Sequence record: PZ150740.1 | Reading direction: 5' to 3' (one strand) | Length of the DNA stretch: 50,699 bases | From: a phage | Part shown: piece after piece, positions 3,385 to 21,981 of the stretch | How the letters are laid out: every line of letters begins with the position of its first letter | Numbering within the stretch: the stretch's first letter is position 1 | Translations under genes and position numbers: made by a program | The notes under the pieces: generated by a model | What the model saw: the letters and a program-made list of their open reading frames with translations, nothing else | What the model was told of the DNA's origin: nothing | Database searches by the model: none

Positions 3385-3564
3385 TCATGCTCTATGGATA
3401 TATTCAGCCGTGATAACGATTAGCAAGGAAAATGCTGGAATGCTCCAAATCACTTCCGCAAACGAATTGTCGTAATTCAGCCGGAATCTATGCCGCGCCG
3501 CGTGGATAAGCCACGTAAAAATGAATAACGCCCAGCACAACACAATAATAGTAAAATCTTCCAT
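3385..3564 (-). CDS. small membrane protein (59 aa, below ORF-track cutoff)
   Basis: Hand-translated ORF MEDFTIIVLCWALFIFTWLIH...; fills gap between flanking genes. Confidence 0.3.
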   Translation of the reverse strand: MEDFTIIVLCWALFIFTWLIHAARHRFRLNYDNSFAEVIWSIPAFSLLIVITAEYIHRA

Positions 3565-6664: not shown

Positions 6665-6692
6665 ATTATAAAAGCTATTTGGTGCGTGTCAA
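6665..6692 (-). promoter_or_regulatory. near-consensus sigma70 promoter (TTGACA-16-TATAAT) for leftward early genes
   Basis: Minus strand reads TTGACAcgcaccaaatagctttTATAAT immediately upstream of gene 6169-6633. Confidence 0.6.
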
Positions 6693-7114
6693 TGTTTTTG
6701 TTGTATTCAAAACGTTACCAATATCGAAAAACTACAAAATCATGCGCAAGTTGTTGATTTCAGGGCTGTTATTTTTCTGTTCACGCTGTTAACGCAATCC
6801 GCCGGAAAAAGTATATATACATATGCAATCCGCCGCGCGCGCAACTATCCATATATACCCACACACAACCAGACCATAACCAACAAAAAGCACTGTAACA
6901 GTGAGAACAAAAAGAAAACATTATAGATATATATAAATAAATAATCTTTATTTTCAATGTATTATAGAGGGATTTTTTTGTTTTTTCCGTTTTCGCTACA
7001 CCGGAAAACCGCGCGGAAACACGCCGCCTGAAATCGGTAACAGGGGTGAACAAAAGACAACAACCACTGACAGCCAGGCGGAAAAGTGAGGCAAGAGGGG
7101 AAGGTTTCACTATC

Positions 7115-7220
7115 TCCCCTGCAACCAATGATTAAACGTGATTACTTTTCTCATCAAATTTGCAAAGGCAATCATCATTTTGACGTGATTTGATTACGAA
7201 TGATTACTTTTGATTATTTC
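7115..7220. repeat. cluster of GATTA(C) direct repeats (iteron-like) in divergent control region
   Basis: About six copies of (T)GATTAC/GATTT within ~100 bp, e.g. tgattacttttc twice. Confidence 0.35.
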
Positions 7221-7246
7221 GATCACAATCCTGGCGCTAACCGTCA

Positions 7247-7291
7247 AATAGCACTTTTTGTTAAAACTCAGACCACCTGATCGGGTACATT
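7247..7291 (+). promoter_or_regulatory. box promoter unit (-10-like TACATT)
   Basis: Perfect box 7247-7267; leader ACACACATCGAAACGAA. Confidence 0.55.
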
Positions 7292-7325
7292 ACACACATC
7301 GAAACGAACCGCTCAGGAGATAGCA

Positions 7326-7598
7326 ATGAACATCAGCAAAACCACTTTCAACTTCGCTAAGCGTCACGGTCTGGATCTGACTGTTGAAGACTTCGGCGAT
7401 GTTCTGCAACTCTGCATATGGGAAGCAGATAACGATTGCGAGTGGCTTTGCTCTTACCGTATCAACTACGATTGCTTGACCTGGCACGGCAATATCTATC
7501 TGCCGCAAGAAGTGAAGGAAGAATTGCCAGCGACTATCAACAACGAAGTTTTCTTGCGTCAGGTGCTGAAATTTATCAGTGAGGAGATCAAGAAGTGA
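7326..7598 (+). CDS. hypothetical early protein
   Basis: ORF track; box unit 7247-7291 upstream. Confidence 0.55.
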   Translation: MNISKTTFNFAKRHGLDLTVEDFGDVLQLCIWEADNDCEWLCSYRINYDCLTWHGNIYLPQEVKEELPATINNEVFLRQVLKFISEEIKK

Positions 7599-7864
7599 TG
7601 GCGGTGATTACCGAAAATGATTTGGATCTGGCGGAGGCATTTTGCAGGGCCGCCAGGGCTAACCTGGATGTGGCTACTAAATTTCTTCCGGTGCGCCCAC
7701 TCTTTTCGTGTGCGCCCGTGAATAAACCGACTCGCGTAATGATCGTGATTGAAGGTGATGGCCTGTACGCTGAAAAGACGTTCCACATCAGCAACATTAA
7801 GGGCCGTGCTGATTTTATCAATGATGTTTGCTTATTGCAGGAGAAGAAAAAATGCTTAATGTGA
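7598..7864 (+). CDS. hypothetical protein
   Basis: ORF track; start overlaps upstream stop (TGATG). Confidence 0.5.
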   Translation: MAVITENDLDLAEAFCRAARANLDVATKFLPVRPLFSCAPVNKPTRVMIVIEGDGLYAEKTFHISNIKGRADFINDVCLLQEKKKCLM

Positions 7865-8064
7865 TCAAGAAAGCACATGAGATGGGTATGGATGTTTCAA
7901 TCTGCGACGCTTCCTCGCGTCACCCGTCAGCACCTGAAAATATGGTTGTTGTCATCGTACATAATCACCGCTATGAGTGCCGTGCGATGTTTGAGAAGCA
8001 GGATAAAGAGTCTCAACGCTGTTTTATCAACGAAGTTTGCGATCTGTATGGGAGAATCAACTGA
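7852..8064 (+). CDS. hypothetical protein
   Basis: ORF track frame; ATG after GGAGAAG RBS. Confidence 0.5.
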   Translation: MLNVIKKAHEMGMDVSICDASSRHPSAPENMVVVIVHNHRYECRAMFEKQDKESQRCFINEVCDLYGRIN

Positions 8065-8330
8065 TGGCACGTATCAATGCACCTATTCCAGTTAAGCGCA
8101 AAGCGCGTTTGCTCAATAACGGATGTTACGCCCTGCGGCCAGCATTTAAGGATCGCACATTTCCGGTTATCGTTAACGTGTCTCACGTAAGCCGTAGCGG
8201 AAACCTGGTATTCGTTAAAGGTGAAGATCTGGCGGCGCTTGGATTCTACGGCGGTGTTTATAGCGAACCGCTCGGATTCTGGCTTGTAGATCCGTTAACT
8301 GGCGAGCGTGAAATCGAATTTCTGGACTAA
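8064..8330 (+). CDS. hypothetical protein
   Basis: ORF track frame; TGATG overlap; stop TAA embedded in box 8330-8350. Confidence 0.5.
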   Translation: MARINAPIPVKRKARLLNNGCYALRPAFKDRTFPVIVNVSHVSRSGNLVFVKGEDLAALGFYGGVYSEPLGFWLVDPLTGEREIEFLD

Positions 8331-8374
8331 ATAGCACTTTTTGTTAAAACTCAATCCTCTCATTCCTGTACATT
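8330..8374 (+). promoter_or_regulatory. box promoter unit (-10-like TACATT)
   Basis: Perfect box; leader ACACGCATCGACAACGAA. Confidence 0.55.
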
Positions 8375-8407
8375 ACACGCATCGACAACGAATGTGAGGA
8401 TTTGAAA

Positions 8408-8560
8408 ATGGTTACTCTGATTACCTGGGAACACGAAAACAGCCAGCCGGAAGCGCGCGAATTTGAAACCGTAGCCGCTTGTTACAACCTGGCGAAAAAT
8501 GGCGGATTCTACAAGGCGCAAATCGTTAACGAGTTTGGAGTTGTTGACTATGAGTTCTAA
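8408..8560 (+). CDS. small protein (50 aa, below ORF-track cutoff)
   Basis: Hand-translated MVTLITWEHENSQPEAREF...; preceded by box unit and RBS TGAGGA. Confidence 0.4.
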   Translation: MVTLITWEHENSQPEAREFETVAACYNLAKNGGFYKAQIVNEFGVVDYEF

Positions 8561-8837
8561 GTTTTACAGCTACACCGACACAGTGGATTTTGAGGGGATA
8601 CAATTGCCCCTCCCGAATATATACCGCTATATCACTCGTGACGAACGCGGATTTATTGAAGCCTGGCGCGCGAAGCCAGTGCGGGATCTTGAATTTGGTG
8701 GCTTCCGATCCCTTGAAGGTGAATTGCCGATCTGCTTTGGTCATCAAAGCGGTAAAAACCTTCCTGTTGTTGAGCGTCAGTATCGCCGCCACAAGATTAC
8801 AAGGCAACTTATCTCTTTAACTGGAAAAGTTGTTTAA
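8550..8837 (+). CDS. hypothetical protein (start adjusted to MSSKFYS)
   Basis: ORF track frame; stop TAA inside box 8836-8856. Confidence 0.5.
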   Translation: MSSKFYSYTDTVDFEGIQLPLPNIYRYITRDERGFIEAWRAKPVRDLEFGGFRSLEGELPICFGHQSGKNLPVVERQYRRHKITRQLISLTGKVV

Positions 8838-8880
8838 TAGCACTTTTTGTTAAAAACGATGTGCGCCTGAATGGTATATT
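8836..8880 (+). promoter_or_regulatory. box promoter unit (-10-like TATATT)
   Basis: Box with 1 mismatch; leader ACATCCATCGACAACAAA. Confidence 0.55.
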
Positions 8881-8911
8881 ACATCCATCGACAACAAACG
8901 AGGATTTAAAG

Positions 8912-9109
8912 ATGGAAAATCAAGTTGATGTTAAAGTAATTATTCGCGACAAGTCTCACGAAAAAGGCTTATTCAAGAAAGGCACTGAAATTACCATCGA
9001 TCTTGATGATATGGTTGCTTACCATTCAGGCTTGGAATGGAAGGTTGTTAAGGTTAACGAATATCATTTCAAGTTGGCTGGCTTTGAAACCGTAATGGAG
9101 ATCATTTAA
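8912..9109 (+). CDS. hypothetical protein (start adjusted to MENQVDV)
   Basis: ORF track frame; RBS GAGGA before ATG. Confidence 0.5.
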   Translation: MENQVDVKVIIRDKSHEKGLFKKGTEITIDLDDMVAYHSGLEWKVVKVNEYHFKLAGFETVMEII

Positions 9110-9321
9110 TGGCAAAGCAATTAAAACTTAAATGCGTAGAAACTTATAACTCAACTTGGAGATTTACGCGCGGAAAAGAATATCGACTAATGGGAAATCT
9201 CAAAGAAGATCCCCATGTAATTTCAGACAATGGTCTTCACCTTTATTTAATGGAATACAACGATGGCTATATTGGCGCTGGTGTTCCAGGCCATAAATTT
9301 AAGATGAAAAATAAGAAATGA
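9109..9321 (+). CDS. hypothetical protein
   Basis: ORF track; TAATG overlap with upstream gene. Confidence 0.5.
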   Translation: MAKQLKLKCVETYNSTWRFTRGKEYRLMGNLKEDPHVISDNGLHLYLMEYNDGYIGAGVPGHKFKMKNKK

Positions 9322-9429
9322 TGCTATTTATTTTCAAAAATGCCTGGATGGTGGCTGTTGCAAATGATCATTACGGCGGCGACGGAAAAAGAGCGCCACG
9401 TCATTCATATTTCAATTGAGGATATTTAA

Positions 9430-9657
9430 ATGAAAGCAAAAGTTTTAAACATTATGGCAACTATTGACGCTCATCACCGCGTTGCTGTAAAACTTGATAA
9501 GTCTTGCGGAATTAGCCAAATCACTATCACCGAGGGCAAAGGCGGCTATCTTATTGGTATCCATCCAGGCGGTAAGGTGCGCAAATACAATAAAGATCAG
9601 GTAAAAGAATTACTGGAAGAAAACGCTTTCTATATTCAAAGTTGGCGCGCTCTTTAA
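9430..9657 (+). CDS. hypothetical protein
   Basis: ORF track; followed by terminator. Confidence 0.5.
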   Translation: MKAKVLNIMATIDAHHRVAVKLDKSCGISQITITEGKGGYLIGIHPGGKVRKYNKDQVKELLEENAFYIQSWRAL

Positions 9658-9664
9658 TTAATCT

Positions 9665-9685
9665 GGCGGCGTTTTGCCGCCTTTT
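9665..9685 (+). terminator. rho-independent terminator
   Basis: GGCGGC-gtttt-GCCGCC hairpin followed by TTTT. Confidence 0.5.
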
Positions 9686-9699
9686 AAATGAGGTGGAAA

Positions 9700-9816
9700 A
9701 TGATAGATAAAGCTATTGATTTCTTTTTTTATTCGATTATTGGTGCGGTTGGCTTTTTGGTTACTGCTGCTGGCCTGGCTATTATCTTAGCTGTTATTAA
9801 GGGGATTATGCGATGA
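9700..9816 (+). CDS. small single-TM peptide (38 aa, not in ORF track)
   Basis: RBS GAGGTGG then ATG; hydrophobic core IIGAVGFLVTAAGLAIILAVI. Confidence 0.35.
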   Translation: MIDKAIDFFFYSIIGAVGFLVTAAGLAIILAVIKGIMR

Positions 9817-9977
9817 GTCAAGACGGATTTTTTGAACGCCTTCAAATGGCAGAAGATGCCGGACTAAATAAAGAGGCGGCGCTTGAGGTGGCATATAAAA
9901 TTAAGACTCTTGATGAGGCTTTAGGTGATATGGATATGGATCTGAATCAAGCGCAATATTTGCAGATCCCACTATGA
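9813..9977 (+). CDS. small acidic protein (54 aa, not in ORF track)
   Basis: ATGA overlap with upstream ORF; hand-translated MSQDGFFERLQ... Confidence 0.35.
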   Translation: MSQDGFFERLQMAEDAGLNKEAALEVAYKIKTLDEALGDMDMDLNQAQYLQIPL

Positions 9978-10171
9978 TTGTTAATGATTGTGGATGCGAT
10001 TTCGATCCTGGTTGTGCGCGCTGTTTTCCGTTTTGAGGTAATTACGATGTATAAAGGTTTAATATTCTCCCTATTGATGGATCTGGTAAAGCCGTTAAAG
10101 ATTGGGCTGATAATGGCTATAAGTGCATTTGCTTTAATGCTGACGGCGGCGATCACGGTGATTACCAGTCA

Positions 10172-10756
10172 GTGCGCATACAGCATGAGAATATCGAATA
10201 CGTTAACGTCTGGATTGATGAAAGATTTTACCACCGCGCGCGCTGGGAGGAATGGGGCATTCCTGACTTTATTATGGCATTTCCACCATGCACCGACCTT
10301 GCAAATAGCGGATCTCGCCATTGGGCCAAAAAACGCCTTGAGAATCCATCGTTCCAGGATGAGGCCGCCGACACTTGCAGGATCGCGGCTGATATAGCTG
10401 ATTATTTCGGTGTTCCTTACATGATCGAAAATCCGGTTGGCAAGTTGTCAACGTTATGGCGAAAGCCTGATTATACGTTCCATCCGTGCGATTACGCTGG
10501 CTATCTGCCGGAAGATGATAAACATCCCGACTTCCCTGATATTATTCCGGCGCGGGATCGCTACTTTAAGAAAACGTGCCTCTGGACTGGCAACGGCTTT
10601 GTTATTCCTCCACGCGCTTTAATCCTGCCGAAAGAGGAAGACAAAGATAATCCAGGCTGGGCCAAAACTGGCGGCAAGTCATCGCGCACAAAGATGATCC
10701 GCTCCCTCACTCCGCGCGGATTTGCTCGCGCCGTCTTTGAGTCAAACTCAAAATAG
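10172..10756 (+). CDS. cytosine-C5 methyltransferase-like protein (catalytic core; N-terminus uncertain, frame open from 10055)
   Basis: FPPC (PC-motif-like), ENP(V)G (ENV-like), PARDRYF and GNGFV motifs in C5-MTase order; no ATG for motif-I region. Confidence 0.4.
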   Translation: MRIQHENIEYVNVWIDERFYHRARWEEWGIPDFIMAFPPCTDLANSGSRHWAKKRLENPSFQDEAADTCRIAADIADYFGVPYMIENPVGKLSTLWRKPDYTFHPCDYAGYLPEDDKHPDFPDIIPARDRYFKKTCLWTGNGFVIPPRALILPKEEDKDNPGWAKTGGKSSRTKMIRSLTPRGFARAVFESNSK

Positions 10757-10796
10757 CACTTTTTGTTAAAAGCCAGGTGTAAAAACCTGGCATAAT
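10752..10796 (+). promoter_or_regulatory. box promoter unit (-10-like CATAAT)
   Basis: Box with 1 mismatch; spacer palindrome GCCAGG-tgtaaaaa-CCTGGC. Confidence 0.55.
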
Positions 10797-10825
10797 CACA
10801 TCGAACAAACAAAGGAGATCTGATC

Positions 10826-11026
10826 ATGAATGTTATCTGTAATGAAACCAACGTATTGATGAAAGGCCGTTTTAAAACGGTTTATCAGAAGATTGCAGGA
10901 AGTAATGATGTGATCGAGGTGGAAGAATTCAGGTTAAGACGCTTGTTAAGGGTAGCCGCTGGCTTCCAGCAAACCGAGATGATTACCGCGCCATTAACAC
11001 AAAAACCGTTCTTTGCACGTTTGTAG
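10826..11026 (+). CDS. hypothetical protein
   Basis: ORF track; box unit 10752-10796 upstream. Confidence 0.5.
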   Translation: MNVICNETNVLMKGRFKTVYQKIAGSNDVIEVEEFRLRRLLRVAAGFQQTEMITAPLTQKPFFARL

Positions 11027-11034
11027 ATCATAAC

Positions 11035-11211
11035 ATGCCGTGCAAAAAGCACTTTAAGCAGGGCAAGCGATACCGAATCGAGAAAGGGCGACCGCTTGGA
11101 AGCGTTGCGGGTTATGTTTTTGATGAGTGCGGCGACCGCTGGAACCTGTACCGTGAAGAGGTCGGATTCTCTGCTGGCGGCTGTTATCTGTTTGAGGGTA
11201 AATATCTGTGA
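11035..11211 (+). CDS. small Cys-containing protein (58 aa, not in ORF track)
   Basis: Hand-translated MPCKKHFKQGKRYRIEKGRPLG... Confidence 0.35.
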   Translation: MPCKKHFKQGKRYRIEKGRPLGSVAGYVFDECGDRWNLYREEVGFSAGGCYLFEGKYL

Positions 11212-11429
11212 TAAACAGTGAAAACCGTTACAAAGTAACGCATTCTACCACAAAGACTTTCAAGCCTGGCGATATAGTCAGGCCCATCAAAAAAACGGCG
11301 GTAGGTTGGCTGATTGGTTTTTCATATCATAAGGCGCTTTACTTTACGTTTAAGGATGGGATTACAGGAGAATGCTACAGCGACCGCCAGCCTGATCGAC
11401 TTCTGGTTGCAATAGAGCGGATCAAATAG
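11208..11429 (+). CDS. hypothetical protein
   Basis: ORF track; stop TAG inside box 11425-11445. Confidence 0.45.
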   Translation: MINSENRYKVTHSTTKTFKPGDIVRPIKKTAVGWLIGFSYHKALYFTFKDGITGECYSDRQPDRLLVAIERIK

Positions 11430-11469
11430 CACTTTTTGACAAAACGGGGTAGTATTGGGCCGTTAAAAT
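11425..11469 (+). promoter_or_regulatory. box promoter unit variant (TTGACA inside box; -10-like TAAAAT)
   Basis: AATAGCACTTTTTGACAAAAC; hairpin GGGCCG/CGGCCC overlaps -10. Confidence 0.5.
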
Positions 11470-11497
11470 TTACGGCCCACAAAGGAGAAGCTAACGA

Positions 11498-13078
11498 ATG
11501 TTTTCATTAGAAACGAACAAATTAACTCCACAGCAAATAATCGCTATGGCTGAAAGCCAGAACCTTTCACCAGTTCGCGTATCAATTCAGGCTAACGGCT
11601 ATCGCCAGTCGTCCAGCTTTTGGGGCGACGTGAAGGATGTAAATAGCGGTCATGATCGCTACCCCGTTATTTCTCTTGGTAATGATATTGATGTTGTAGG
11701 CAAGTTATCACGCAGTATTGCGCGATCCGTTCAATTTCCTGAATCATCGGCTTACATGCACTTTATCGGCTGCATTTCCGCCGCTATGCTTGGACGCTTT
11801 ACGGTTGACTATCACGGAACCGATCAGCCGACTGCGCTTTACGTGGTTACAAGCCAGCCGCCGTCAACTGGTAAATCTGCGATCAACAGTATGGCTATTG
11901 CTCCGATGATTGCGGAAGTTGAGAAGATCAACGAGCAACGCCGCAAGGAAAGAAAGAAAATACAGGCAAAGTTGGCAGGTCTTGCAAAGGAGATGAAAAG
12001 CGAAAGATCCGGCGCTGATATGGAATCTCTATACCAGGAAAAAGAGGATCTGGAGGAGAAGCTGGAAAAGATGTGTGATATAACTTTCCCTGTTTCAGAT
12101 ACAACTCCAGAAGGCTTGGCGAAAATCAACAACAAGCAAGGTAACTTTGCCGTAATATCTGACGAAGCAACAAGTATTAATAGCCTGTTAGGCTTGACCT
12201 ATGCAAATAGCGAAAGGAAGACTAACAGTGAGCTAGTGCTTAAGGCGTGGGATAATGGTCACGTATCAATTGCCCGTGCTAATGCTGACAATAATATGAG
12301 TTTTCGCGCGCTTGGATGCATGAGCGTTATAGCACAGGATGAAACGATAAGCGGTATCATGGACGCTGGATCGCGCGGTATCGGTGTGAGTGAGCGCTTT
12401 TTGTTGGTCCGCGAAGAATCATTCTTAGGCCGTCGCTCATTCATTGATGAAAATGGTGATTCTACCTATGAGGCGGTGGATTCTGAATTGAAAGCCCAAT
12501 ATTATCAATTGGTGCATAACATCATGAGCGAATCAAATATATCGCTGAAAATAAGCCGCTCAGCTATGCGAGTGCTCAACATTGCTCGTCAGGATATGGA
12601 ACCGCATCTTGCAGACGGCGGAAAGTATTCTCATACAATGTTACGCGGTGCGCTGGGTAAAATGGATAAACAGGTGATCAGGCTTGCTTCCGTCCTGCAT
12701 GTTATCCGTAACTGGTTTAATCCTGCCGGATACCCGCAGAAGTCGAAAGAGATCGACGTGGAAACAATGCAAGAGGCGTTGATCATGTTTCAGGAATTGA
12801 GCAAAACATACATTAGCGCCGCCAATGCTTCTGGTTATGCTGGTGATGATGCTGAAATGGGTAAATTGATTGAATTGATCACGAGGCACGGCAAGGCTAA
12901 CAAAGGGATTCTGAATATTCGCGCCCTGTACGAATCAGCGAGAAAGGTAAAACCTTTCGTTGGTCAGGCTGGCGTAATGAAGAGGATAGAGGGGCACTTG
13001 CTGCCAATGCTGGAAGAAAGAAATTATGTTTGTGTGATTAATGGTGTTATTTTTGTCAATCCAATACTGCTGGGATGA
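11498..13078 (+). CDS. large early protein, possible replication-associated ATPase
   Basis: 526 aa; deviant P-loop-like PPSTGKS; placement in early right block; family assignment uncertain. Confidence 0.35.
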   Translation: MFSLETNKLTPQQIIAMAESQNLSPVRVSIQANGYRQSSSFWGDVKDVNSGHDRYPVISLGNDIDVVGKLSRSIARSVQFPESSAYMHFIGCISAAMLGRFTVDYHGTDQPTALYVVTSQPPSTGKSAINSMAIAPMIAEVEKINEQRRKERKKIQAKLAGLAKEMKSERSGADMESLYQEKEDLEEKLEKMCDITFPVSDTTPEGLAKINNKQGNFAVISDEATSINSLLGLTYANSERKTNSELVLKAWDNGHVSIARANADNNMSFRALGCMSVIAQDETISGIMDAGSRGIGVSERFLLVREESFLGRRSFIDENGDSTYEAVDSELKAQYYQLVHNIMSESNISLKISRSAMRVLNIARQDMEPHLADGGKYSHTMLRGALGKMDKQVIRLASVLHVIRNWFNPAGYPQKSKEIDVETMQEALIMFQELSKTYISAANASGYAGDDAEMGKLIELITRHGKANKGILNIRALYESARKVKPFVGQAGVMKRIEGHLLPMLEERNYVCVINGVIFVNPILLG

Positions 13079-13470
13079 TTATGTTTTTGCTTGATCTGTA
13101 TAAATGGTGTGAGTCATACGACTGGTTTAACAGGCAGCACATAGCCAAATTTATCTATCAGCATAGAGAATGTGAGCGGCTCGCACGGGCCGCCGGACTT
13201 ACGCCGCGAATGTTCGCCAGCCTTGCATCTAAGGAATTTTGCGCAAGAATGATGACGGCTGGTTATATAGATGGGGTCTGCGGAAAATACTGGTCCAAAG
13301 GATCGTCAAAGCGGCCTTTCGGATTCGAATTGTATAGCCTGGATGGTATGCGCAACGACTGGATCAGGGATATGGCGAGAATAGGGGAGATGGGCGATGA
13401 TGAATTGTTCCAGGCAAAAGCTGATAGACAAGATCTTGAAGCACTGCGCCGTAAATTCAATATCACATGA
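13075..13470 (+). CDS. hypothetical protein
   Basis: ORF track; ATGA overlap with upstream gene. Confidence 0.5.
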   Translation: MIMFLLDLYKWCESYDWFNRQHIAKFIYQHRECERLARAAGLTPRMFASLASKEFCARMMTAGYIDGVCGKYWSKGSSKRPFGFELYSLDGMRNDWIRDMARIGEMGDDELFQAKADRQDLEALRRKFNIT

Positions 13471-13586
13471 GGATTTTATTCATGCTTTACTTACGCTACT
13501 TTATTCAGATATGCGCGCTTTTAGCACCACTGAACATGTTTTATGCAATGATGATGGTGTATTACTGGTTACGGTAAAGCGTATGG

Positions 13587-13631
13587 AATAGCATTTTTTG
13601 TTAAAACGCCCGGCCTAGTGTCGGGTATATT
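13587..13631 (+). promoter_or_regulatory. box promoter unit (-10-like TATATT)
   Basis: Box with 1 mismatch; 40-bp near-identity to unit at 16802-16846 on the opposite strand. Confidence 0.55.
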
Positions 13632-13667
13632 TGTTTCATCGAAACGAAACAACCAAAAGGTAAAATT

Positions 13668-13892
13668 ATGTCCAGCAAGTTTTTAGTAGTTCGCGTATAT
13701 AATCATGACAACGGATCTTCTGCTGAAATCCCAACAATTTACGACAGGGATTTTGGATGGAGTGAGCAATCGGCGGTTGAAAATGAGCGCAAGATTGCAG
13801 AACTGTACGGCGACACTTGCAGCATTGAAGTAAGGCAGTACGACGAATCGAACAAGCCAACAAACGAAACTCATATGTGGCCCGACGCATAA
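13668..13892 (+). CDS. hypothetical protein
   Basis: ORF track; box unit 13587-13631 upstream; terminator downstream. Confidence 0.5.
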   Translation: MSSKFLVVRVYNHDNGSSAEIPTIYDRDFGWSEQSAVENERKIAELYGDTCSIEVRQYDESNKPTNETHMWPDA

Positions 13893-13898
13893 AAATAA

Positions 13899-13926
13899 AG
13901 GAGGCATTAAGCCTCCTTTTTCTTTT
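13899..13926. terminator. rho-independent terminator (plus strand), overlapping 3' end of spanin gene
   Basis: AGGAGGC-attaa-GCCTCCT followed by TTTTTCTTTT. Confidence 0.5.
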
Positions 13927-14302
13927 CTCTCCAGTAAAGACAAATCAGCACAATTAACACAACCACGCATATGATTACTGGATCGTACCATCTGCCGTTA
14001 TTACCCTGCACGACCTGAATTTTGTCTGCCTTGATGGTATTGGCCTGAATGGTTGATGTTGTGAAATCCTTCTTGCTGGACGTGTCCACCTTGTCAACCG
14101 CAGATTCCTTTATTGTGGTTTCCTGTTTTGTGCTGGCGTCCTGCTTTGCTGTAATGCCAACTGTCTGCTTCACGTTCTCCGCGCCAGCCTGTGCTGTGAT
14201 TTCCGGCTTACTGCCGATTAATCCGGTCAGTGGCGTAACGCTTGAACATCCAGACAAGATCACCGCCATTGCGATTGGTGTAAGTAAAAATTTCTTCATC
14301 AT
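13907..14302 (-). CDS. unimolecular spanin (u-spanin)
   Basis: N-terminal lipoprotein signal (ILSGCSS) plus C-terminal TMD (VIICVVVLIVLICLYW); immediately downstream of endolysin. Confidence 0.6.
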   Translation of the reverse strand: MMKKFLLTPIAMAVILSGCSSVTPLTGLIGSKPEITAQAGAENVKQTVGITAKQDASTKQETTIKESAVDKVDTSSKKDFTTSTIQANTIKADKIQVVQGNNGRWYDPVIICVVVLIVLICLYWREKKKEA

Positions 14303-14303
14303 T

Positions 14304-14788
14304 TCAATCCATTGTGCAATATTTGTATTCGACCTTGCGCCTGTTAAGTAAGCCTTTAGACTTCTCGCGCTTTCCTGTTTTGGGGTTATGGTAATACGTC
14401 CAACGATAAAGCTGATCGCAAGCCTCGTTTAATTTCCCCTGGTTGATGAGTTTCAGCATTGTTGAATTTCTGAAAGCTCCAACTCCTGCATTATAAGTGA
14501 ATGAGTACATTGCTGCACGCATACTATCAGGAATGTCAACCTTAACTTGCTTGTCAACTTCTTTTTTAGCAACCTGGATATGTTTAGCCAACAAAGCATC
14601 ACACTCTTTTTAGTGTACGTTTTCCCCAGGATAACATCTGGTCCGGTTATTCCTGCGCAAACAGTCCATACTCCCGCAATATCTTTGTATGGCTTGTATC
14701 TTACCCCTTCGATCTCTTCAAGAAGTGGAGAAGTCAAGGCAACCGCAACGCCAAAGGCCGCAGCCGCTACCTTGTTCTTTATGCTCAT
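14304..14788 (-). CDS. SAR endolysin (lysozyme), reading frame interrupted by 1-nt frameshift near 14600-14612
   Basis: Two track ORFs in different frames; N-part has SAR-like TMD and [19 protein letters not shown]-part [17 protein letters not shown]; resembles P21-type lysozyme as recalled. Confidence 0.6.
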
Positions 14789-15003
14789 TACTTGCCCCTG
14801 ATTTCAATAGCTTTTTGAATATCACCTTTTTCGATCGCCTCGTGGAATTTTTTACTATCACGCCAGCGAAGGTAAGCGCCCCATGCACCGAATGCAGCCA
14901 TTAAAACAAAGCTGGCAATAGCAATGGTTAACTGCCCTGTAGCTGCGCTTGCGATAGATGAACCGCCAGATCCGGCGGTAGCTGCGTTAATAAAATCTTT
15001 CAT
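14788..15003 (-). CDS. holin (pinholin-like)
   Basis: 71 aa, two hydrophobic segments, Gly/Ala/Ser-rich first TMD; directly upstream of endolysin. Confidence 0.55.
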
Positions 15004-15147
15004 TTTTATTCTCCATATTAATTAAAGTCAATATATTGACCGAATGATAAACTTACATGGTAAAAAATTAAACAAAAAAAGAGGCGACAAACGCCGCCCC
15101 TTTGCAAGTTTTTGATTTAATTTGTCATTGATTTAAATAAAAATTCA

Positions 15148-16265
15148 TCAATTCATCATTTCTGGATAGTGAACAAATCGCCCCACTTCTCCATGCTCTT
15201 TGTCGTAAATGATAACCGCTGCACGGCGTCGAGATCTCCAGCCACCGCGCGCGGCGTATGCGTCTTTTGCCGCCAGGGTGCTATGCACCTCAACGATGCC
15301 AAGCGACGTTTCCGTCACAGTCTGGTGATGCCAGTGCCCTACGTGCGCATACATAGTTTTTGAGTTTCCGAAGTCCTCCCGCCAATCTGACGCGCACATC
15401 ATTAGCAAAGTCTCAGGTTTGCGCACTGTGTGCCCGTGATGGTACGCAAGGAAAGTTTTTCCGTATTGCGTGTGGTGAACAACGCGAGGAGAAACATCAA
15501 CGTAAACGCGCGGCTCGTTCTCATATGCTGCCGCCATTGCTGCGCGTAGCCAAATCATTCCTGATTGGTCGTGATTCCCCTCTACTACCTGGACCTCAAC
15601 ATGTTTATGCTTTAACAGCATTTTATTAATTGCGCGGCGCACTGCACGTATTGCAACGTAAACCAATTTTGCATATCGGCTATCTTGATCAAGTACGTGA
15701 CCGCTTGCAGGTGTCACCGCCTCCAGGCCGTCGCTATGCAGCATATCGCCACCAATCAGGATAACAGCCTTTTCGCTGTCCGGTGCGCACATCAAAGCAT
15801 AGTCGATAAAGTTATTCATAACGCGCTCTGCCGTCGCAGTATCCCAATTTTCGCCGCATTCGTGCTTATGGGCCATAGCGCCTAAGTGCATGTCAAAGAT
15901 CGGATACAATGAAAGCGTTTCATTATAGTTACGCTCCTGCAATGGAACTGGATCTAATCGCGGCACTTCCTCGCTAAATGCCTCCATTGCTGCGCGCATC
16001 AATGCCTCTAATTGCTCTTTATCCTTGCTGGTTTTTGTCCACTTGAGGATTATGTTGCCTTCTTTGTCAGTCATTACTGACTCACCATGAACACCAAAAC
16101 CAGGCGCTCCAATGGTCGATAACTGTCCTTGCTTTGCAAGACGCGCCGCGCGACGCTCGACGCTTCTCACATTCATTCCGTACTCTTGAGCGATCTGTTT
16201 ATATGTCTTACCTGCCGCCCGTTCGATCTTGAGTTGCTCATCTGTAATTTTTACATTTTTCATTC
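15148..16265 (-). CDS. calcineurin-like metallophosphoesterase with N-terminal HTH-like domain
   Basis: Motifs GGDMLHSDG, EGNHD, HHGH; N-terminal segment YKQIAQEYGMNVRSVERRAARL; start adjusted to MKNVKI. Confidence 0.6.
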
Positions 16266-16357
16266 TGCTACCTATCTCATTACTATATGGTACATAACTG
16301 TAACAGCGATGATAACGGGTAACGGTAGAACAAACAAGCGCCACATGATAACTATCC

Positions 16358-16600
16358 TCATTTATAATATTTGCGAGGCTCTCGGATTTTAGCCATTGCC
16401 TCTTTGAAATCAATTTTTGTTGGAACTGCTGGAACTCTCACCATTTTTCGCGGCCTTTCCTTGAGGAAAGTCATCTTATCGCCGCTAATTATGCTCACAT
16501 CTGCAATATCAAAGTATTGCGCGATCTTCTTTATATCGTCGGCTATTCCGCATTCTTTAGCGTGATTCCATACCGCATCTCTACCTTGCTCAACCTTCAT
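16358..16600 (-). CDS. hypothetical protein (start adjusted to MKVEQGR)
   Basis: ORF track frame. Confidence 0.45.
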   Translation of the reverse strand: MKVEQGRDAVWNHAKECGIADDIKKIAQYFDIADVSIISGDKMTFLKERPRKMVRVPAVPTKIDFKEAMAKIREPRKYYK

Positions 16601-16769
16601 GCTTATAATATGCCTCCGCTTGTTCAATTGGCGCGTGACCGTATGCAACTTTCAGTAAAAACATTGCGATGTCCCAATCAAACTGGAACCCTTCCTTTGA
16701 ACCGCCCTCTACTGAACCTTTTGCTACTTCTTGAGCAAGATTAAAAGCGCGTTTATCGAATACCACCAT
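16590..16769 (-). CDS. small protein (59 aa, not in ORF track)
   Basis: Hand-translated MVVFDKRAFNLAQEVAKGS...; RBS GAGGAAATAAAA; downstream of box unit. Confidence 0.4.
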   Translation of the reverse strand: MVVFDKRAFNLAQEVAKGSVEGGSKEGFQFDWDIAMFLLKVAYGHAPIEQAEAYYKHEG

Positions 16770-16801
16770 TTTTATTTCCTCATGTTTGCTTCGTTGAAAT
16801 A

Positions 16802-16846
16802 ATTATGCCCGACACTAGGCCGGGCGTTTTAACAAAAAATGCTATT
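16802..16846 (-). promoter_or_regulatory. box promoter unit (-10-like CATAAT)
   Basis: Box with 1 mismatch; near-identical to unit at 13587-13631. Confidence 0.55.
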
Positions 16847-17102
16847 AGTGGATCATTCCGTGCTGAAAATTCCACGAATCGACAAACTCTTGCATGTCAT
16901 TTCTTATTTGTTCGTGCCATTTTTCAAGCGGTAGTTTTCTTGTCTCCTCAAAGCTCATATCTAATGCGCTTGAAAATTCCCACGGATCGCAATCAATCAT
17001 CTTTTTCACGTTATGGTTTTTATCAAGTGCATCGCACACCATAGCGCGAAATAACAACCATTCGCCAGTTTCATTTAAATAAACGCTTCTCTCTTTTTTC
17101 AT
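16845..17102 (-). CDS. hypothetical protein
   Basis: ORF track; stop in box 16826-16846. Confidence 0.5.
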   Translation of the reverse strand: MKKERSVYLNETGEWLLFRAMVCDALDKNHNVKKMIDCDPWEFSSALDMSFEETRKLPLEKWHEQIRNDMQEFVDSWNFQHGMIH

Positions 17103-17106
17103 CGTG

Positions 17107-17832
17107 TTAGCTCCGTTTGCGTGCGCGACGTTCGGTTACAGAAGGGCAAATATCGCTGATCTTAACGTATCGCGTTTTCTGCTCCTCGCCTTCTTTAAGT
17201 TTGCGCATGACAAAAATCACGCTTCCCTTGTTGTTGCCCTGCACAGGCTCACCAGTCAATCCAGACACAAAGGCGATTCTTCCGGTGCGGGAGTATTCTA
17301 CTCCACCCTCTTCGTAAACCTCGCCAGTGATCCAGATGATTTCAGCCGCGTTTTTCTGCGCTTCATAAAACCATGCTGTAGAGTTGTCGGCTGGCAACAA
17401 AACATCAATTTGGTTGTTGTGCTCCATTTGCTCAATTGCTTTCTTGATAAATGGAGTTGGGTTGCTGTACGGTGGGTTAAGCCATACGTGCTTGTTGCTA
17501 CCCCACCAACGCTTTAAGCAGTTTGTTTCCTTGCTATAGAACTTCTCGCAAACTGCGTTTTCCTGGCTTGCTGCTGCGTCGAGATCGTATTCACCAAATT
17601 CTGATTCCATCCACTCCACGATCTCTTGAGGAGTGCTCCACATATCGCGCACAACGTCCGGCGTGGTGCTTCCAGCGTATCGGTTGCCGCTTACCTTATA
17701 ATATTGATTTGGCTTTACTGCCTGGTAATGGCCTCCAGTTGCAAGGGCATTCCCTATAAACGTTTCTCTCTCCAACTGCTCAAAGCTAACGAATGCGTCA
17801 TGAGTGTCTTTATCTAAAATATCTTTAGCCAT
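17107..17832 (-). CDS. dam: DNA N6-adenine methyltransferase (Dam-like)
   Basis: NPPY motif (WLNPPYSNP); box unit upstream. Confidence 0.75.
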   Translation of the reverse strand: MAKDILDKDTHDAFVSFEQLERETFIGNALATGGHYQAVKPNQYYKVSGNRYAGSTTPDVVRDMWSTPQEIVEWMESEFGEYDLDAAASQENAVCEKFYSKETNCLKRWWGSNKHVWLNPPYSNPTPFIKKAIEQMEHNNQIDVLLPADNSTAWFYEAQKNAAEIIWITGEVYEEGGVEYSRTGRIAFVSGLTGEPVQGNNKGSVIFVMRKLKEGEEQKTRYVKISDICPSVTERRARKRS

Positions 17833-17871
17833 TTCATTTCTCCGCTATTAAAAGCAATCTCGTGTTATTGA

Positions 17872-17916
17872 ATTATGGCGCAATCCATCGCGCCAGTTTT
17901 AACAAAAAGTGCTATT
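17872..17916 (-). promoter_or_regulatory. box promoter unit upstream of Dam gene (-10-like CATAAT)
   Basis: Perfect box 17896-17916; spacer hairpin GGCGC/GCGCC. Confidence 0.55.
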
Positions 17917-18232
17917 TAAGCATGTATTCAATAGCCAACTTAAACTGATTGAATCCGTAGGCGACCGCAGCGAATCCTCCTAAGCTGCGAACGCGACGCA
18001 AAAAAGCCTTTTGTTCATCGCTGACTGGTGATGCTTTCCCCTTGCCTGATTTATTTACTCGTTTGATCTCAATCGCTGCAAAGGGGTATTTTCCGTTTAA
18101 ACCAATCAGGATGATGAAATCGCTTACTCCCTTAACCAAGCCGGACTGCTGATCAATCATCGCCGTTACTTTAGACTTCTCATTCTCGTTTACCGTATGC
18201 CACGCCAGCAAGTAAGGATGAGCATAAGTCAA
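17912..18232 (-). CDS. VRR-NUC domain nuclease
   Basis: KGVSDFII ... IEIK ... SDEQKAFLRRVRSLGG pattern typical of VRR-NUC; start codon uncertain (TTG in track). Confidence 0.6.
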   Translation of the reverse strand: MTYAHPYLLAWHTVNENEKSKVTAMIDQQSGLVKGVSDFIILIGLNGKYPFAAIEIKRVNKSGKGKASPVSDEQKAFLRRVRSLGGFAAVAYGFNQFKLAIEYMLK

Positions 18233-18329
18233 CCACTGAAAACTATCTATCTGGTGATTAACTTCCTTTCTCGTGTCGGTTGATCTCTTTCGTAAAACTC
18301 AAGATAATCGCCTTTATCAGTTATAGCCA

Positions 18330-18860
18330 TTAAACAAACTCCCGTTTTGCAATGTTATCCTCACCTTTGCCGTTTTTGCGATGCGTTACGCGTACAGGAG
18401 GCATGATGTGATGAGCGTATGACATTATTTTACGCGCATTTCTATAGCTCGCCACCATACCAGCAATCTTGCGATCCGGTATGTGCTGCAATGCTATTTT
18501 TCTCCATATCGTCCGGCAAATGTTGCTTTCTGACTCAGGGAAAAATCTTTCGTATGCCTTGAACGTGTCGCCGTTGGCCTCAAGCTCATAGCAAAAAACA
18601 ATTCCTTTCTGGTTTTTCGTCATATCAACGCGGAAAGATTTAACGTTGCACCAATCGTTTTTGGTGTAGTGCTTACCGCTTAACTTCTCGTTAGGATCGA
18701 CAAGAGAAATATCGCAACAACGGCAAACTCTCGCCACTACGTCGTTTTTTGTTCCGCAACCGCGCTTGATTATCTTTTTTGTTCTCTGATCTACCTGGTC
18801 CTCGCAAATTCTGTAAGTCCAAAAATGCTCGCATCTCTTCCCGTTATCGTCTACGTGCAT
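18330..18860 (-). CDS. Cys-rich (zinc-ribbon-like) protein
   Basis: Multiple CxxC-like pairs (CEHF...C, CRCC). Confidence 0.45.
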   Translation of the reverse strand: MHVDDNGKRCEHFWTYRICEDQVDQRTKKIIKRGCGTKNDVVARVCRCCDISLVDPNEKLSGKHYTKNDWCNVKSFRVDMTKNQKGIVFCYELEANGDTFKAYERFFPESESNICRTIWRKIALQHIPDRKIAGMVASYRNARKIMSYAHHIMPPVRVTHRKNGKGEDNIAKREFV

Positions 18861-18909
18861 ACATCGGCGAGCGTAAAAGCTGTTTAGCGTTCCACATATC
18901 GGGCAAGTC

Positions 18910-20325
18910 TTAGGCTCTTTCCGTTTGTAAATCTCTTTTGAAATTGCGCTTGCTCAAGAATTCGATCGAATACAAATCCCCTAACTCATCCATAGTACCT
19001 GCAAAATCCAATACAAGATGATCTTTTTTCTTGAATCCCTGCTCAATGTGCCATTGCTTAAGCAGTCGCATACCGCGCCCCAAAAGCTGGATAAGCAATG
19101 TTAGAGATCCTATCTTTCTCAGTATTACCGAAGTATCCCAAAACGGAACGTTAACGCCAGTGGTAAGCGCCTGTACCTGGAAGATGTATTTTACTTTCCC
19201 CTCGTATGCCTCCCTCAGCCACTCTTTACGCTGATTATCTCCAGTTTTGCCAGTTATGATCCTGTATTCAACGCCTTGCGGCAGTGCGGCGGCGGCCTCC
19301 TTGCAGTGTCTTTCCCCTGCGCATGTAACTAAAACTCCGTTCCTGTCTTTGCATATCTCATGGACTTTAGCCATGATTTTCTGTGTCATTGTTGCGTCTT
19401 GATGGATCTTTTCTTCCATCTTGCGCAATGTTTTAGCGTCAAAGTCTGAAACGCCATCCTCGCTACTGGCTTCGAACTCTGAAAGGTCATACCCCAGGTC
19501 GCCTACGTCGCCGAAATTTGTTGGCACTACCGAACCGAATTTGATTAAGTAGTTTGTGTCTATGTTAGTAACCTGCTCACGCCAGAATCCCTTTTTGTTC
19601 TTATCTTCAACCAGTATTGGAACCACGCCGCGAAATTCAGATCCAGTCATACCGAATATTCGCAATTCGTGCCCGTATGCCTCGCGACACCTGCGCATCA
19701 TTTCCATGATTATTACGGTGTACTGTGTGCGCCCTGTTCCGAACATTCGATCGCCATTGGAATCAAATTGCTGTTCTTCTCCAATCAGTACAGGCAAATC
19801 CTTCTTAGTGGTCATCTGCTGGTAAGATTCATTATTTTCTATCGCGTCCGCGAGATCCTCCCAATCCACCTGGTGACATTCATCAATACCGATAACGTGC
19901 GGAACATAATCACCTAACGACTTAAACAATCCGTTTACTACAGTGCCCTCAGAACCGACTACGATCGGAAAGTATGCGCTTTTTGTTTTCAGTCCGGCAC
20001 AATAGATTGAGTTTGGCACGCCAAGATTGCTGATCTCTTCCGAATCCTGATCAACAATTTCAGCCTGGCGAGCAAGCACCATCATTTTCAATCCCATTTT
20101 GCGGCATTGCGCCGCAACCATCGCAAACATCAATGTTTTGCCAGCCGACACAGAAGCCTTAACAAAGAAAGGATGCTCATAGTTTTTCATGCGCTTTGCG
20201 ATCTCGGCATACGCAACGCACTGATAAGGATAAGGCACTATATTGCCAACCGTGAATCGCTCTTGGATGCTTTTTATTACTGCCTCGCCTAACGCCGATA
20301 TTTGTTTTTCTATATTTGGAATCAT
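18910..20325 (-). CDS. SF2 DNA helicase (DExH-box)
   Basis: Walker A SAGKT; GIDECHQ (DECH box). Confidence 0.8.
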   Translation of the reverse strand: MIPNIEKQISALGEAVIKSIQERFTVGNIVPYPYQCVAYAEIAKRMKNYEHPFFVKASVSAGKTLMFAMVAAQCRKMGLKMMVLARQAEIVDQDSEEISNLGVPNSIYCAGLKTKSAYFPIVVGSEGTVVNGLFKSLGDYVPHVIGIDECHQVDWEDLADAIENNESYQQMTTKKDLPVLIGEEQQFDSNGDRMFGTGRTQYTVIIMEMMRRCREAYGHELRIFGMTGSEFRGVVPILVEDKNKKGFWREQVTNIDTNYLIKFGSVVPTNFGDVGDLGYDLSEFEASSEDGVSDFDAKTLRKMEEKIHQDATMTQKIMAKVHEICKDRNGVLVTCAGERHCKEAAAALPQGVEYRIITGKTGDNQRKEWLREAYEGKVKYIFQVQALTTGVNVPFWDTSVILRKIGSLTLLIQLLGRGMRLLKQWHIEQGFKKKDHLVLDFAGTMDELGDLYSIEFLSKRNFKRDLQTERA

Positions 20326-20357
20326 CTTAAACCTTTAAAAAATGCCATTTGGAGTAT

Positions 20358-20402
20358 ATAATAGACTCATTACAATAAACTGTTTTAACAAAAAATGCTA
20401 TG
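20358..20402 (-). promoter_or_regulatory. box promoter unit upstream of helicase (-10-like TATTAT), overlapping divergent plus-strand TATAAT
   Basis: Box with 2 mismatches; plus-strand TATAAT at 20357-20362 for gene 20413. Confidence 0.5.
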
Positions 20403-20412
20403 AGGTGACTAG

Positions 20413-20889: not shown

Positions 20890-20896
20890 TGATAAG

Positions 20897-20932
20897 GCCC
20901 AGCGAAATGATAATATTTGCTGGGCTTTTTTT
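20897..20932 (+). terminator. rho-independent terminator
   Basis: GCCCAGC ... GCTGGGC hairpin followed by TTTTTTT. Confidence 0.5.
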
Positions 20933-20945
20933 ATTGAGGTTTGCT

Positions 20946-21875: not shown

Positions 21876-21890
21876 AACTCCGCTAGTATT

Positions 21891-21916: not shown

Positions 21917-21981
21917 GCACTTGAAAATGCTATTATCTGCATTATCATTAGCAAAAAGTGCTATTTAGGAGGATTTTACAA

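What the first reader, a model, noticed from the sequence alone, without database searches (positions are those of the whole stretch)
7326..11429. Dense array of small early genes, many under 60 aa, with translational coupling
Hand translation reveals ORFs below the track cutoff at 3385-3564, 8408-8560, 9700-9816, 9813-9977, 11035-11211 and 16590-16769, each with RBS-like sequences and start-stop overlaps (TGATG, ATGA, TAATG) with neighbours. Several are predicted single-TM peptides. Such early micro-genes are typical of host-takeover or anti-defence functions and are easily missed.
Basis: seen in the sequence. Interest (0 to 1): 0.4.

Follow-up and report, generated by a model that had tools for sequence, protein, structure and literature searches.

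The report
Small accessory genes of T1-like phage
This is the ordinary, already annotated block of small accessory genes of a T1-like coliphage; four of the six tiny genes proposed are real and conserved, but two are fragments of longer genes broken by single-base deletions that are probably sequencing errors.

Summary
The window is a Warwickvirus-like phage genome (Drexlerviridae, T1-like), about 96% identical to phages tiwna and JLBYU26. Positions 7326-11429 hold 15 same-strand genes covering about 93% of the DNA, with a median length of 74 aa. Eight of the 14 gene junctions overlap by 1-13 nt, so the dense, coupled array is real.

Four of the six micro-ORFs listed are real genes. They are intact in relatives and under purifying selection: 8408-8560 (50 aa, Pfam DUF7170), 9700-9816 (38 aa, single TM), 3385-3564(-) (59 aa, two TM-like segments) and 16590-16769(-) (59 aa). 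A fifth real one, 9318-9419 (33 aa), was not listed.

ORFs 9813-9977 and 11035-11211 are artefacts. Single-base deletions at about 9944 and 10931, absent from all close relatives, cut a 74-aa gene and a 128-aa gene. A third deletion breaks the Dcm-like methylase. Similar deletions break the endolysin and a helicase, which points to sequence errors.

Function is mostly unknown. Gene 8912-9109 is a homologue of Gp54(Bas11), a non-essential protein that triggers the CapRel defence. "Early" and "anti-defence" remain inference. The array is split into short operons by a known family-wide 21-nt repeat.

The parts
7248..7266 (+). Copy of the family-wide intergenic repeat ATAGCACTTTTTGTTAAAA. A -10-like TACATT lies at 7286-7291. 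It heads the operon g01-g04.
   Evidence: repeat described for phage TLS in PMC11447400
7326..7598 (+). g01, 90 aa, phrog_6147, unknown function
   Evidence: annotated as tiwna gp75
7598..7864 (+). g02, 88 aa, no family hit; TGATG overlap with g01
   Evidence: tiwna gp74
7852..8064 (+). g03, 70 aa; overlaps g02 by 13 nt; weak similarity to g02
8064..8330 (+). g04, 88 aa, phrog_9595; TGATG overlap with g03
8331..8349 (+). Intergenic repeat copy; -10-like TACATT at 8369-8374; heads operon g05-g06
8408..8560 (+). g05, a real micro-gene of 50 aa; Pfam DUF7170 and phrog_4653
   Evidence: Pfam E 2.8e-28. Intact in 7 relatives. 43 synonymous against 4 non-synonymous differences in frame +1.
8550..8837 (+). 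g06, 95 aa, phrog_1972; overlaps g05 by 11 nt
8837..8855 (+). Intergenic repeat copy; -10-like TATATT at 8875-8880; heads operon g07-g10. Its start is a recurrent homology breakpoint among relatives.
8912..9109 (+). g07, 65 aa, homologue of Gp54 of phage Bas11 (the CapRelSJ46 trigger)
   Evidence: Pfam PF25180, 122.9 bits against a cut-off of 27; PDB 9axb E 1e-16; PMC11578894
9109..9321 (+). g08, 70 aa; TAATG overlap with g07
   Evidence: phrog E 3.6e-19. 33 aa in all 9 relatives that have it, dN/dS 0.04-0.18. Frame control.
9430..9657 (+). g10, 75 aa, phrog_4344
9665..9681 (+). Terminator-like GC hairpin followed by a T run, between g10 and g11
   Evidence: conserved in tiwna and FritzSarasin
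9700..9816 (+). g11, a real micro-gene of 38 aa, a single-pass membrane peptide; SD GAGGTGG; ATGA overlap with g12
   Evidence: Hydropathy 2.51. Kept at 37-38 aa down to 51% identity. Found in 64 phage records. The exact sequence is on 75 contigs.
9813..10036 (+). g12, a 74-aa acidic protein with an invariant C-terminal NDCxCxFDxxCxRCFPF motif. It is frameshifted here by a 1-nt deletion at about 9944.
10047..10756 (+). Dcm-like DNA methyltransferase (236 aa in relatives), frameshifted here by a 1-nt deletion at about 10076
   Evidence: (phrog_757, E 2e-84)
10753..10771 (+). Intergenic repeat copy; -10-like CATAAT at 10791-10796; heads operon g14-g15
10826..11211 (+). g14, a 128-aa all-beta protein (phrog_2684), frameshifted here by a 1-nt deletion at about 10931.
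11208..11429 (+). g15, 73 aa, GTG start, GTGA overlap with g14
11426..11444 (+). Variant repeat copy (TTGACA form) that heads the helicase operon; right boundary of the array
3385..3564 (-). Real micro-gene outside the array, 59 aa, two TM-like segments
   Evidence: 10 phage records. Annotated as JLBYU10_42 but unannotated in SECphi27. dN/dS 0.15. Hydropathy.
16590..16769 (-). Real micro-gene outside the array, 59 aa, phrog_2180 (= tiwna gp53)

Best explanation
Positions 7326-11429 are the variable accessory-gene block of a T1-like (Warwickvirus, Drexlerviridae) coliphage. It holds 15 small genes in about five short operons.

Four operons begin about 75 nt downstream of a copy of the family-wide repeat aaATAGCACnnnTTGnTAAAA, which is followed 22 nt later by a -10-like hexamer. 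The fifth follows a terminator-like hairpin. Within operons the genes are packed by 1-13-nt start/stop overlaps, which fits translational coupling.

Gene content differs between close relatives, and the homology breakpoints fall at gene junctions and at the repeat cassettes. The block therefore behaves like a shuffling accessory region.

The true micro-genes are 8408-8560, 9318-9419 and 9700-9816, plus 3385-3564(-) and 16590-16769(-) elsewhere in the window. ORFs 9813-9977 and 11035-11211 are not independent genes. They are pieces of a 74-aa gene and a 128-aa gene that are broken in this sequence by single-base deletions in short homopolymer runs, most likely sequencing or assembly errors.

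Shown: gene structure, conservation, the frameshifts and family membership. Inferred: that the repeat cassettes act as promoters, that expression is early or middle, and that the products serve host-interaction or anti-defence roles.
For: Identity of the phage and of the annotated homologues.

Frameshifts:
- The window has 1-nt gaps against three relatives.
- The corrected products match PHROG profiles end to end.
- The 74-aa form is 100% identical to tonnikala_19, and more than 80 of the 97 homologue clusters are exactly 74 aa.
- The 128-aa family is 117-129 aa in about 45 clusters.
- The exact 54-, 58- and 66-aa products are absent from a collection of about 15 billion proteins.
- The same kind of deletion splits the endolysin, the ATP-dependent helicase and the VRR-NUC nuclease. 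All lie between 9.9 and 19 kb, and none in the structural half.
- ORF 11035 has no SD sequence.

Real micro-genes: intact in relatives; dN/dS 0-0.5; the correct frame stands out in nucleotide-level frame controls for g05 and g09; Pfam DUF7170.

Mosaicism: presence/absence matrix and breakpoints at 7599, 8058/8073, 8410, 8836, 9051/9114, 9318 and 9429.

Repeat: 19 copies co-oriented with the genes. In 14 of 19 a -10-like hexamer lies exactly 22 nt after TTGnTA. The repeat was described in TLS as being of unknown function.
Against: - There are no expression data (RNA, ribosome footprints or peptides) for any of these genes.
- No reads are available, so error against real mutation cannot be settled directly.
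- The -35 region of the cassettes is non-canonical (22-nt spacer), and the sigma-70 scan did not call them. Promoter function is therefore inferred.
- For the 38-aa TM gene, the substitution pattern alone does not separate the sense frame from the mirrored antisense frame. The call rests on the SD, the ATGA coupling, strand context and the preserved hydrophobic profile.
Confidence: 0.8

Rival explanations
1. All six micro-ORFs are real, independent small genes of this phage. On this view ORFs 9813-9977 and 11035-11211 are translated as 54-aa and 58-aa proteins.
For: Both ORFs start with ATG. ORF 9813 has a real SD and a real ATGA coupling. ORF 11035-11211 roughly matches the C-terminal domain of the 128-aa protein, so a stand-alone product is conceivable.
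Against: - All close relatives carry the uninterrupted 74-aa and 128-aa genes.
- The invariant Cys4 C-terminus of the 74-aa family would be lost.
- There is no SD before 11035.
- The exact short products are absent from about 15 billion proteins.
Confidence: 0.05
2. The single-base deletions are real mutations. This phage lineage would be losing dispensable accessory genes (the 74-aa gene, Dcm and the 128-aa gene) by pseudogenisation.
For: Accessory genes are dispensable: Gp54 is non-essential in Bas11 (PMC11578894). Another contig, L008, also shows broken copies of the same three genes.
Against: Deletions of the same type, all contractions of short homopolymer runs and none of them insertions, also split the endolysin and the ATP-dependent helicase in the same 9-kb stretch. 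That is hard to reconcile with a plaque-forming phage.
Confidence: 0.12
3. The sub-60-aa ORFs are chance open frames in intergenic DNA and encode nothing.
For: Six-frame scanning gives 192 ORFs of at least 30 aa in 18 kb, so an open frame alone means little.
Against: - Length and frame are kept at 51-59% identity.
- dN/dS is well below 1.
- g05 shows 43 synonymous against 4 non-synonymous differences, in the called frame only.
- There are Pfam and PHROG families for g05 and g09.
Confidence: 0.03

Closest known systems
Homologous gene blocks annotated in Warwickvirus phages (tiwna gp62-gp75, FritzSarasin/Bas04 bas04_0047-0062, JLBYU26_12-27)
   Same: Same genes in the same order at 95-96% nucleotide identity. 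All are annotated as hypothetical proteins plus a Dcm-like methylase.
   Different: The window lacks the 282-nt gene tiwna gp68, carries three frameshifts, and differs from FritzSarasin in the cassette between 8410 and 8836.
Gp54 of phage Bas11 (PDB 9axb/9erv; Pfam PF25180), the alternative trigger of the CapRelSJ46 defence
   Same: g07 (8912-9109) matches over its full length. It is a small, non-essential six-stranded beta-barrel protein from the same phage family.
   Different: The alignment shows roughly 55% identity (read by eye). The paper reports that the SECphi27, Bas5 and Bas8 homologues do not trigger CapRelSJ46, so trigger activity cannot be assumed here.
Phage accessory regions (Silas et al., bioRxiv 10.1101/2023.04.06.535777)
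   Same: A cluster of small genes of mostly unknown function, with content that varies between near-identical phages and lies between conserved genes.
   Different: No gene of this block has been shown to counter a defence. That paper does not mention Drexlerviridae.
PeSL promoter/stem-loop cassettes of T4-type phages (PMC2839356, PMC4122927)
   Same: A short conserved regulatory cassette is repeated in front of small variable genes, and homology breakpoints between relatives fall at the cassettes.
   Different: There is no terminator component. Stem-loops, where present, lie between the repeat and the -10 and lack a T run. The -35 geometry is non-canonical. The phage is a siphovirus from an unrelated family.
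21-nt intergenic repeat of phage TLS (aaATAGCACnnnTTGnTAAAA, PMC11447400)
   Same: Same sequence, same orientation, and 72-78 nt upstream of start codons.
   Different: Nothing differs materially; this is the same element. Its function is unknown, and the TLS paper lists it as an open question.

Membership tests
Real protein-coding micro-gene (sORF) | The reading frame, with its start and stop, is kept in diverged relatives | tested here: met
   Met for 8408-8560, 9318-9419, 9700-9816, 3385-3564(-) and 16590-16769(-). NOT met for 9813-9977 and 11035-11211, which read through as 74-aa and 128-aa genes in relatives.
Real protein-coding micro-gene (sORF) | Purifying selection in the called frame | tested here: met
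   dN/dS is 0-0.08 (g05), 0.04-0.18 (g09), 0.15 (3385) and 0.12-0.26 (16590). The frame control is clear for g05 and g09 and ambiguous for the TM gene g11.
Real protein-coding micro-gene (sORF) | Evidence of translation (footprints or peptides) | not testable with these tools
   No expression data are available.
Pfam PF25180 (Gp54, phage antiviral trigger protein) | Score above the curated gathering threshold over the full length | tested here: met
   g07 scores 122.9 bits against a cut-off of 27, over 1-65 of 65. PDB 9axb E 1e-16.
Pfam PF25180 (Gp54, phage antiviral trigger protein) | Binds and activates CapRelSJ46 | not testable with these tools
   The literature reports that several homologues do not trigger it.
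Pfam PF23776 (DUF7170) | Score above the gathering threshold | tested here: met
   g05 scores 98.2 bits against a cut-off of 27, over 1-50 of 52.
Phage accessory region | Gene content varies among closely related genomes, between conserved flanks | tested here: met
   Presence/absence matrix, breakpoints at gene junctions, and flanks conserved at 97%.
Phage accessory region | Genes are dispensable and act on host defences | not testable with these tools
   Only Gp54(Bas11) is reported as non-essential.
PeSL-type mobile regulatory cassette | Composite of a terminator stem-loop and an early promoter | tested here: not met
   A -10-like hexamer is present in 16 of 19 copies (14 at 22 nt, 2 at 21 nt), but there is no canonical -35 (22-nt spacer) and no hairpin-plus-T-run terminator.
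PeSL-type mobile regulatory cassette | Indels and replacements between relatives are bounded by the cassettes | tested here: met
   Breakpoints recur at 8836 and at 8410/8411 in several relatives. FritzSarasin swaps the genes between them.
C5-cytosine DNA methyltransferase (Dcm-like) | Conserved catalytic motifs and a family-model match | tested here: inconclusive
   The corrected product shows FDGSG, FPPCTD and ENPVG (read directly) and matches phrog_757 'DNA methyltransferase' at E 2e-84. There is no Pfam hit at E<0.1. The gene is frameshifted in this window.
Early (pre-replication) phage genes | Transcribed first after infection from host-RNA-polymerase promoters | not testable with these tools
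   No timing data were found. The cassettes are shared with replication genes such as the helicase at 11498.

The most novel reading that the evidence does not exclude
Probability: 0.3. Interest if true: 0.5.

Novelty: already known. Interest (0 to 1): 0.22.

Why it matters
The practical lesson concerns quality control. Micro-ORFs read off a single genome can be products of frameshift errors. Here one comparison with relatives removes two of six candidates and exposes a 9-kb stretch of this sequence with broken essential genes.

The genuine micro-genes (33, 38, 50 and 59 aa) are annotated inconsistently across GenBank relatives, so a consistent annotation would help screens for defence triggers and anti-defence genes in Drexlerviridae. 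The block contains a homologue of the only functionally characterised small protein of this kind (Gp54), and possibly structural relatives of it.

Tried and rejected
- Profile-profile comparison (hhalign) among all array families, to look for paralogues. Nothing was significant: the best was g02 against g03 at 11% probability, and g14 against Gp54, g08 and g15 gave P of only 0.03-0.08. BLASTP of g14 against g15 gave E 0.23.
- AlphaFold of the 74-aa protein gave pLDDT 65, too poor for a fold search.
- PDB sequence searches of g12 and g14 found nothing.
- The sigma-70 consensus scan called no promoter at the repeats.
- Rfam and tRNA scans of the whole window found nothing.
- Literature searches for expression timing in T1-like phages found nothing usable.
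- An exact-text search for the repeat sequence found no paper. The TLS description was found by keyword.
- Programmed frameshifting was considered and rejected. The deletion sites (CTTG, ATTTG, TTCCA) are not slippery heptamers, and relatives encode the genes in one frame.


Full report
**What the window is.** Megablast of 7326-11429 against GenBank phages finds 240 records. The best are at 95-96% identity over the full length and are all T1-like coliphages of the genus Warwickvirus (Drexlerviridae, Tempevirinae), such as tiwna, JLBYU26 and FritzSarasin/Bas04. In those records the same stretch is annotated as 13-18 hypothetical proteins plus a Dcm-like methyltransferase. The window has no tRNA genes and no Rfam matches.

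**Anatomy of the array.** Reading the sequence against the relatives' annotation gives 15 genes, all on the + strand:
- g01 7326-7598 (90 aa)
- g02 7598-7864 (88 aa)
- g03 7852-8064 (70 aa)
- g04 8064-8330 (88 aa)
- g05 8408-8560 (50 aa)
- g06 8550-8837 (95 aa)
- g07 8912-9109 (65 aa)
- g08 9109-9321 (70 aa)
- g09 9318-9419 (33 aa)
- g10 9430-9657 (75 aa)
- g11 9700-9816 (38 aa)
- g12 9813-10036 (74 aa once corrected)
- Dcm-like methylase 10047-10756 (236 aa once corrected)
- g14 10826-11211 (128 aa once corrected)
- g15 11208-11429 (73 aa)

Coding sequence covers about 93% of the 4,104 nt. Most starts have a Shine-Dalgarno-like sequence. The exceptions are g09, which has only the ATGA overlap, and the ATG at 11035, which has none.

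**Two of the six micro-ORFs are frameshift artefacts.** Alignment with tiwna and FritzSarasin and whole-genome BLAST against tiwna and JLBYU26 show that the window lacks one base at about 9944 (CT[T]G), 10076 (ATT[T]G) and 10931 (TTC[C]A).
- Restoring the base at 9944 turns the 54-aa ORF 9813-9977 into a 74-aa protein. It matches phrog_9323 over 1-74 of 75 and is 100% identical to tonnikala_19. More than 80 of the 97 homologue clusters are exactly 74 aa. They share an invariant C-terminal NDCxCxFDxxCxRCFPF motif that the truncated reading would lose.
- Restoring 10931 fuses ORFs 10826-11026 and 11035-11211 into a 128-aa protein. It matches phrog_2684 end to end, and its homologues are 117-129 aa in about 45 clusters.
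- Restoring 10076 repairs the methylase.
- The exact 54-, 58- and 66-aa products do not occur in a collection of about 15 billion proteins, whereas the exact 38-aa peptide occurs on 75 contigs.

**The deletions are probably errors.** In the 13-kb block 9091-22361, which is 97.5% identical to tiwna, there are ten unpaired 1-nt deletions and one insertion. Nearly all of the deletions are contractions of short homopolymer runs. Besides the three above, they split the endolysin (14607), the VRR-NUC nuclease (18282) and the ATP-dependent helicase (18921 and 18969). No gene in the structural half is split. A plaque-forming phage with a broken endolysin and helicase is implausible, so sequencing or assembly error is the most likely cause. 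This is an inference, because no reads are available. Real pseudogenisation is kept as a rival at about 0.12.

**The other micro-ORFs are real genes.**
- *g05 (8408-8560).* It is Pfam DUF7170 (E 2.8e-28) and phrog_4653. It is intact in seven relatives. It shows 43 synonymous against 4 non-synonymous differences in its own frame. The other frames show mostly non-synonymous differences, except the mirror antisense frame, which is full of stop codons.
It is phrog_32259, is exactly 33 aa in nine relatives even where its upstream neighbour differs, and has dN/dS of 0.04-0.18.
- *g11 (9700-9816).* It is a 38-aa single-pass membrane peptide with hydropathy 2.51. It is present in 64 phage records and is kept at 37-38 aa, with the same hydrophobic profile, at 51-54% identity. 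Its substitution pattern alone does not separate sense from mirror antisense, so this call also rests on the SD, the ATGA coupling and strand context.
- *3385-3564(-).* It has two TM-like segments. It occurs in ten records, is annotated in JLBYU10 at 59% identity but left unannotated in RefSeq SECphi27, and has dN/dS of 0.15.
- *16590-16769(-).* It is tiwna gp53 and phrog_2180, with dN/dS of 0.12-0.26.

'Several single-TM peptides' therefore reduces to one single-TM and one double-TM protein.

**How the block is organised and evolves.** Copies of ATAGCACTTTTTGTTAAAA lie at 7248, 8331, 8837, 10753 and 11426. There are 19 copies in the window, against 0.03 expected by chance, and all point the same way as the downstream genes.
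- In 14 of the 19 copies a -10-like hexamer lies exactly 22 nt after TTGnTA.
- A conserved leader, CATCGAAACGA, and an SD follow.
- The start codon is 72-78 nt downstream.

This is the 21-nt repeat reported for phage TLS, whose authors list its function as an open question (PMC11447400). The exact 19-mer is widespread on 44-53-kb viral contigs. The 22-nt spacer is not canonical for sigma-70, and the consensus scan does not call these sites. Promoter function, and therefore 'early' timing, is inferred.

A terminator-like hairpin at 9665-9681 separates g10 from g11.

Gene content is mosaic among relatives. Homology breakpoints fall at gene junctions and recur at 8836 (the start of a repeat) and at 8410 (the end of the leader). 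FritzSarasin carries different genes between those two points. This resembles the accessory regions of Silas et al.. It also partly resembles the PeSL cassettes of T4-type phages, although the terminator half of a PeSL is absent.

**Function.** Most products have no annotated function.
- *g07* is a full-length homologue of Gp54(Bas11) (Pfam PF25180, PDB 9axb). Gp54(Bas11) is a 66-aa, non-essential, six-stranded beta-barrel that directly activates the CapRelSJ46 defence. Its benefit to the phage is unknown, and several homologues do not trigger CapRel (PMC11578894).
- *g12* is strongly acidic (16 D+E against 5 K+R) and sits directly upstream of the methylase. Its model is too poor to interpret.

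Anti-defence or host-takeover roles remain plausible but untested.

**Verdict.** The feature is an ordinary, already annotated accessory-gene block of a known phage genus. Two of the six micro-ORFs proposed are artefacts of a locally error-ridden sequence. The modestly new points are the possible Gp54-like fold of phrog_2684 and the fixed geometry and breakpoint association of the known 21-nt repeat.

Noticed in passing
window 9900-19000 (sites about 9944, 10076, 10931, 14307, 14607, 15074, 17832, 18282, 18921, 18969): There is a cluster of unpaired 1-nt deletions relative to tiwna and JLBYU26, nearly all contractions of short homopolymer runs. They split the endolysin, the VRR-NUC nuclease, the ATP-dependent helicase, the Dcm-like methylase and two small genes. 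None is seen in the structural half. This looks like a low-quality stretch of the assembly.
   Followed up: yes
19 sites across the window, e.g. 30(-), 2644(-), 5894(-), 7248(+), 13588(+), 17897(-), 38137(+): This is the family-wide 21-nt repeat aaATAGCACnnnTTGnTAAAA, known from phage TLS with unknown function. A -10-like hexamer lies at a fixed 22 nt after TTGnTA in 14 of 19 copies. By my own arithmetic that places the repeat centre near -41, a class-II-activator-like position. Fifteen of the 19 copies lie in the non-structural 0-22 kb.
   Followed up: partly
window 6667-7325: The large divergent intergenic region between the leftward and rightward small-gene blocks is about 600 nt and unannotated in tiwna. 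It contains AT-rich repeats (TATATATACATAT, three copies with inverted arrangement) and GATTAC-type direct repeats. It could be an origin or a regulatory region. JLBYU26 annotates a 115-aa ORF here.
   Followed up: partly
window 9109 (junction g07/g08): The 282-nt gene tiwna gp68 (also FritzSarasin bas04_0055) is cleanly absent from the window between the Gp54 homologue and g08.
   Followed up: partly
window 7598-8064: The adjacent genes g02 and g03 share a visible motif, (V/I)V(V/I)...F(I)N(D/E)VC.L. hhalign gives only 11% probability. They may be an old tandem duplication.
   Followed up: partly
window 9813-10036: The 74-aa protein encoded directly upstream of the methylase is very acidic (net about -11). 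It has an invariant four-cysteine C-terminal motif, NDCxCxFDxxCxRCFPF. It stays next to the methylase gene in diverged relatives (L009, L022).
   Followed up: partly
L008 (IMGVR_UViG_2974632794_000001): This related viral contig also shows broken copies of the 74-aa gene, the methylase and the 128-aa gene. It is either another error-prone assembly or an independent loss.
   Followed up: no
window 22420-22757: BLAST against JLBYU26 gives staggered, overlapping matches offset by about 126 nt. This suggests a tandem repeat inside the long tail-fibre gene.
   Followed up: no
GenBank hits: Twenty of the 240 matching T1-like phage records are labelled as Campylobacter phages with Campylobacter jejuni as host, which is unexpected for this family.
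   Followed up: no
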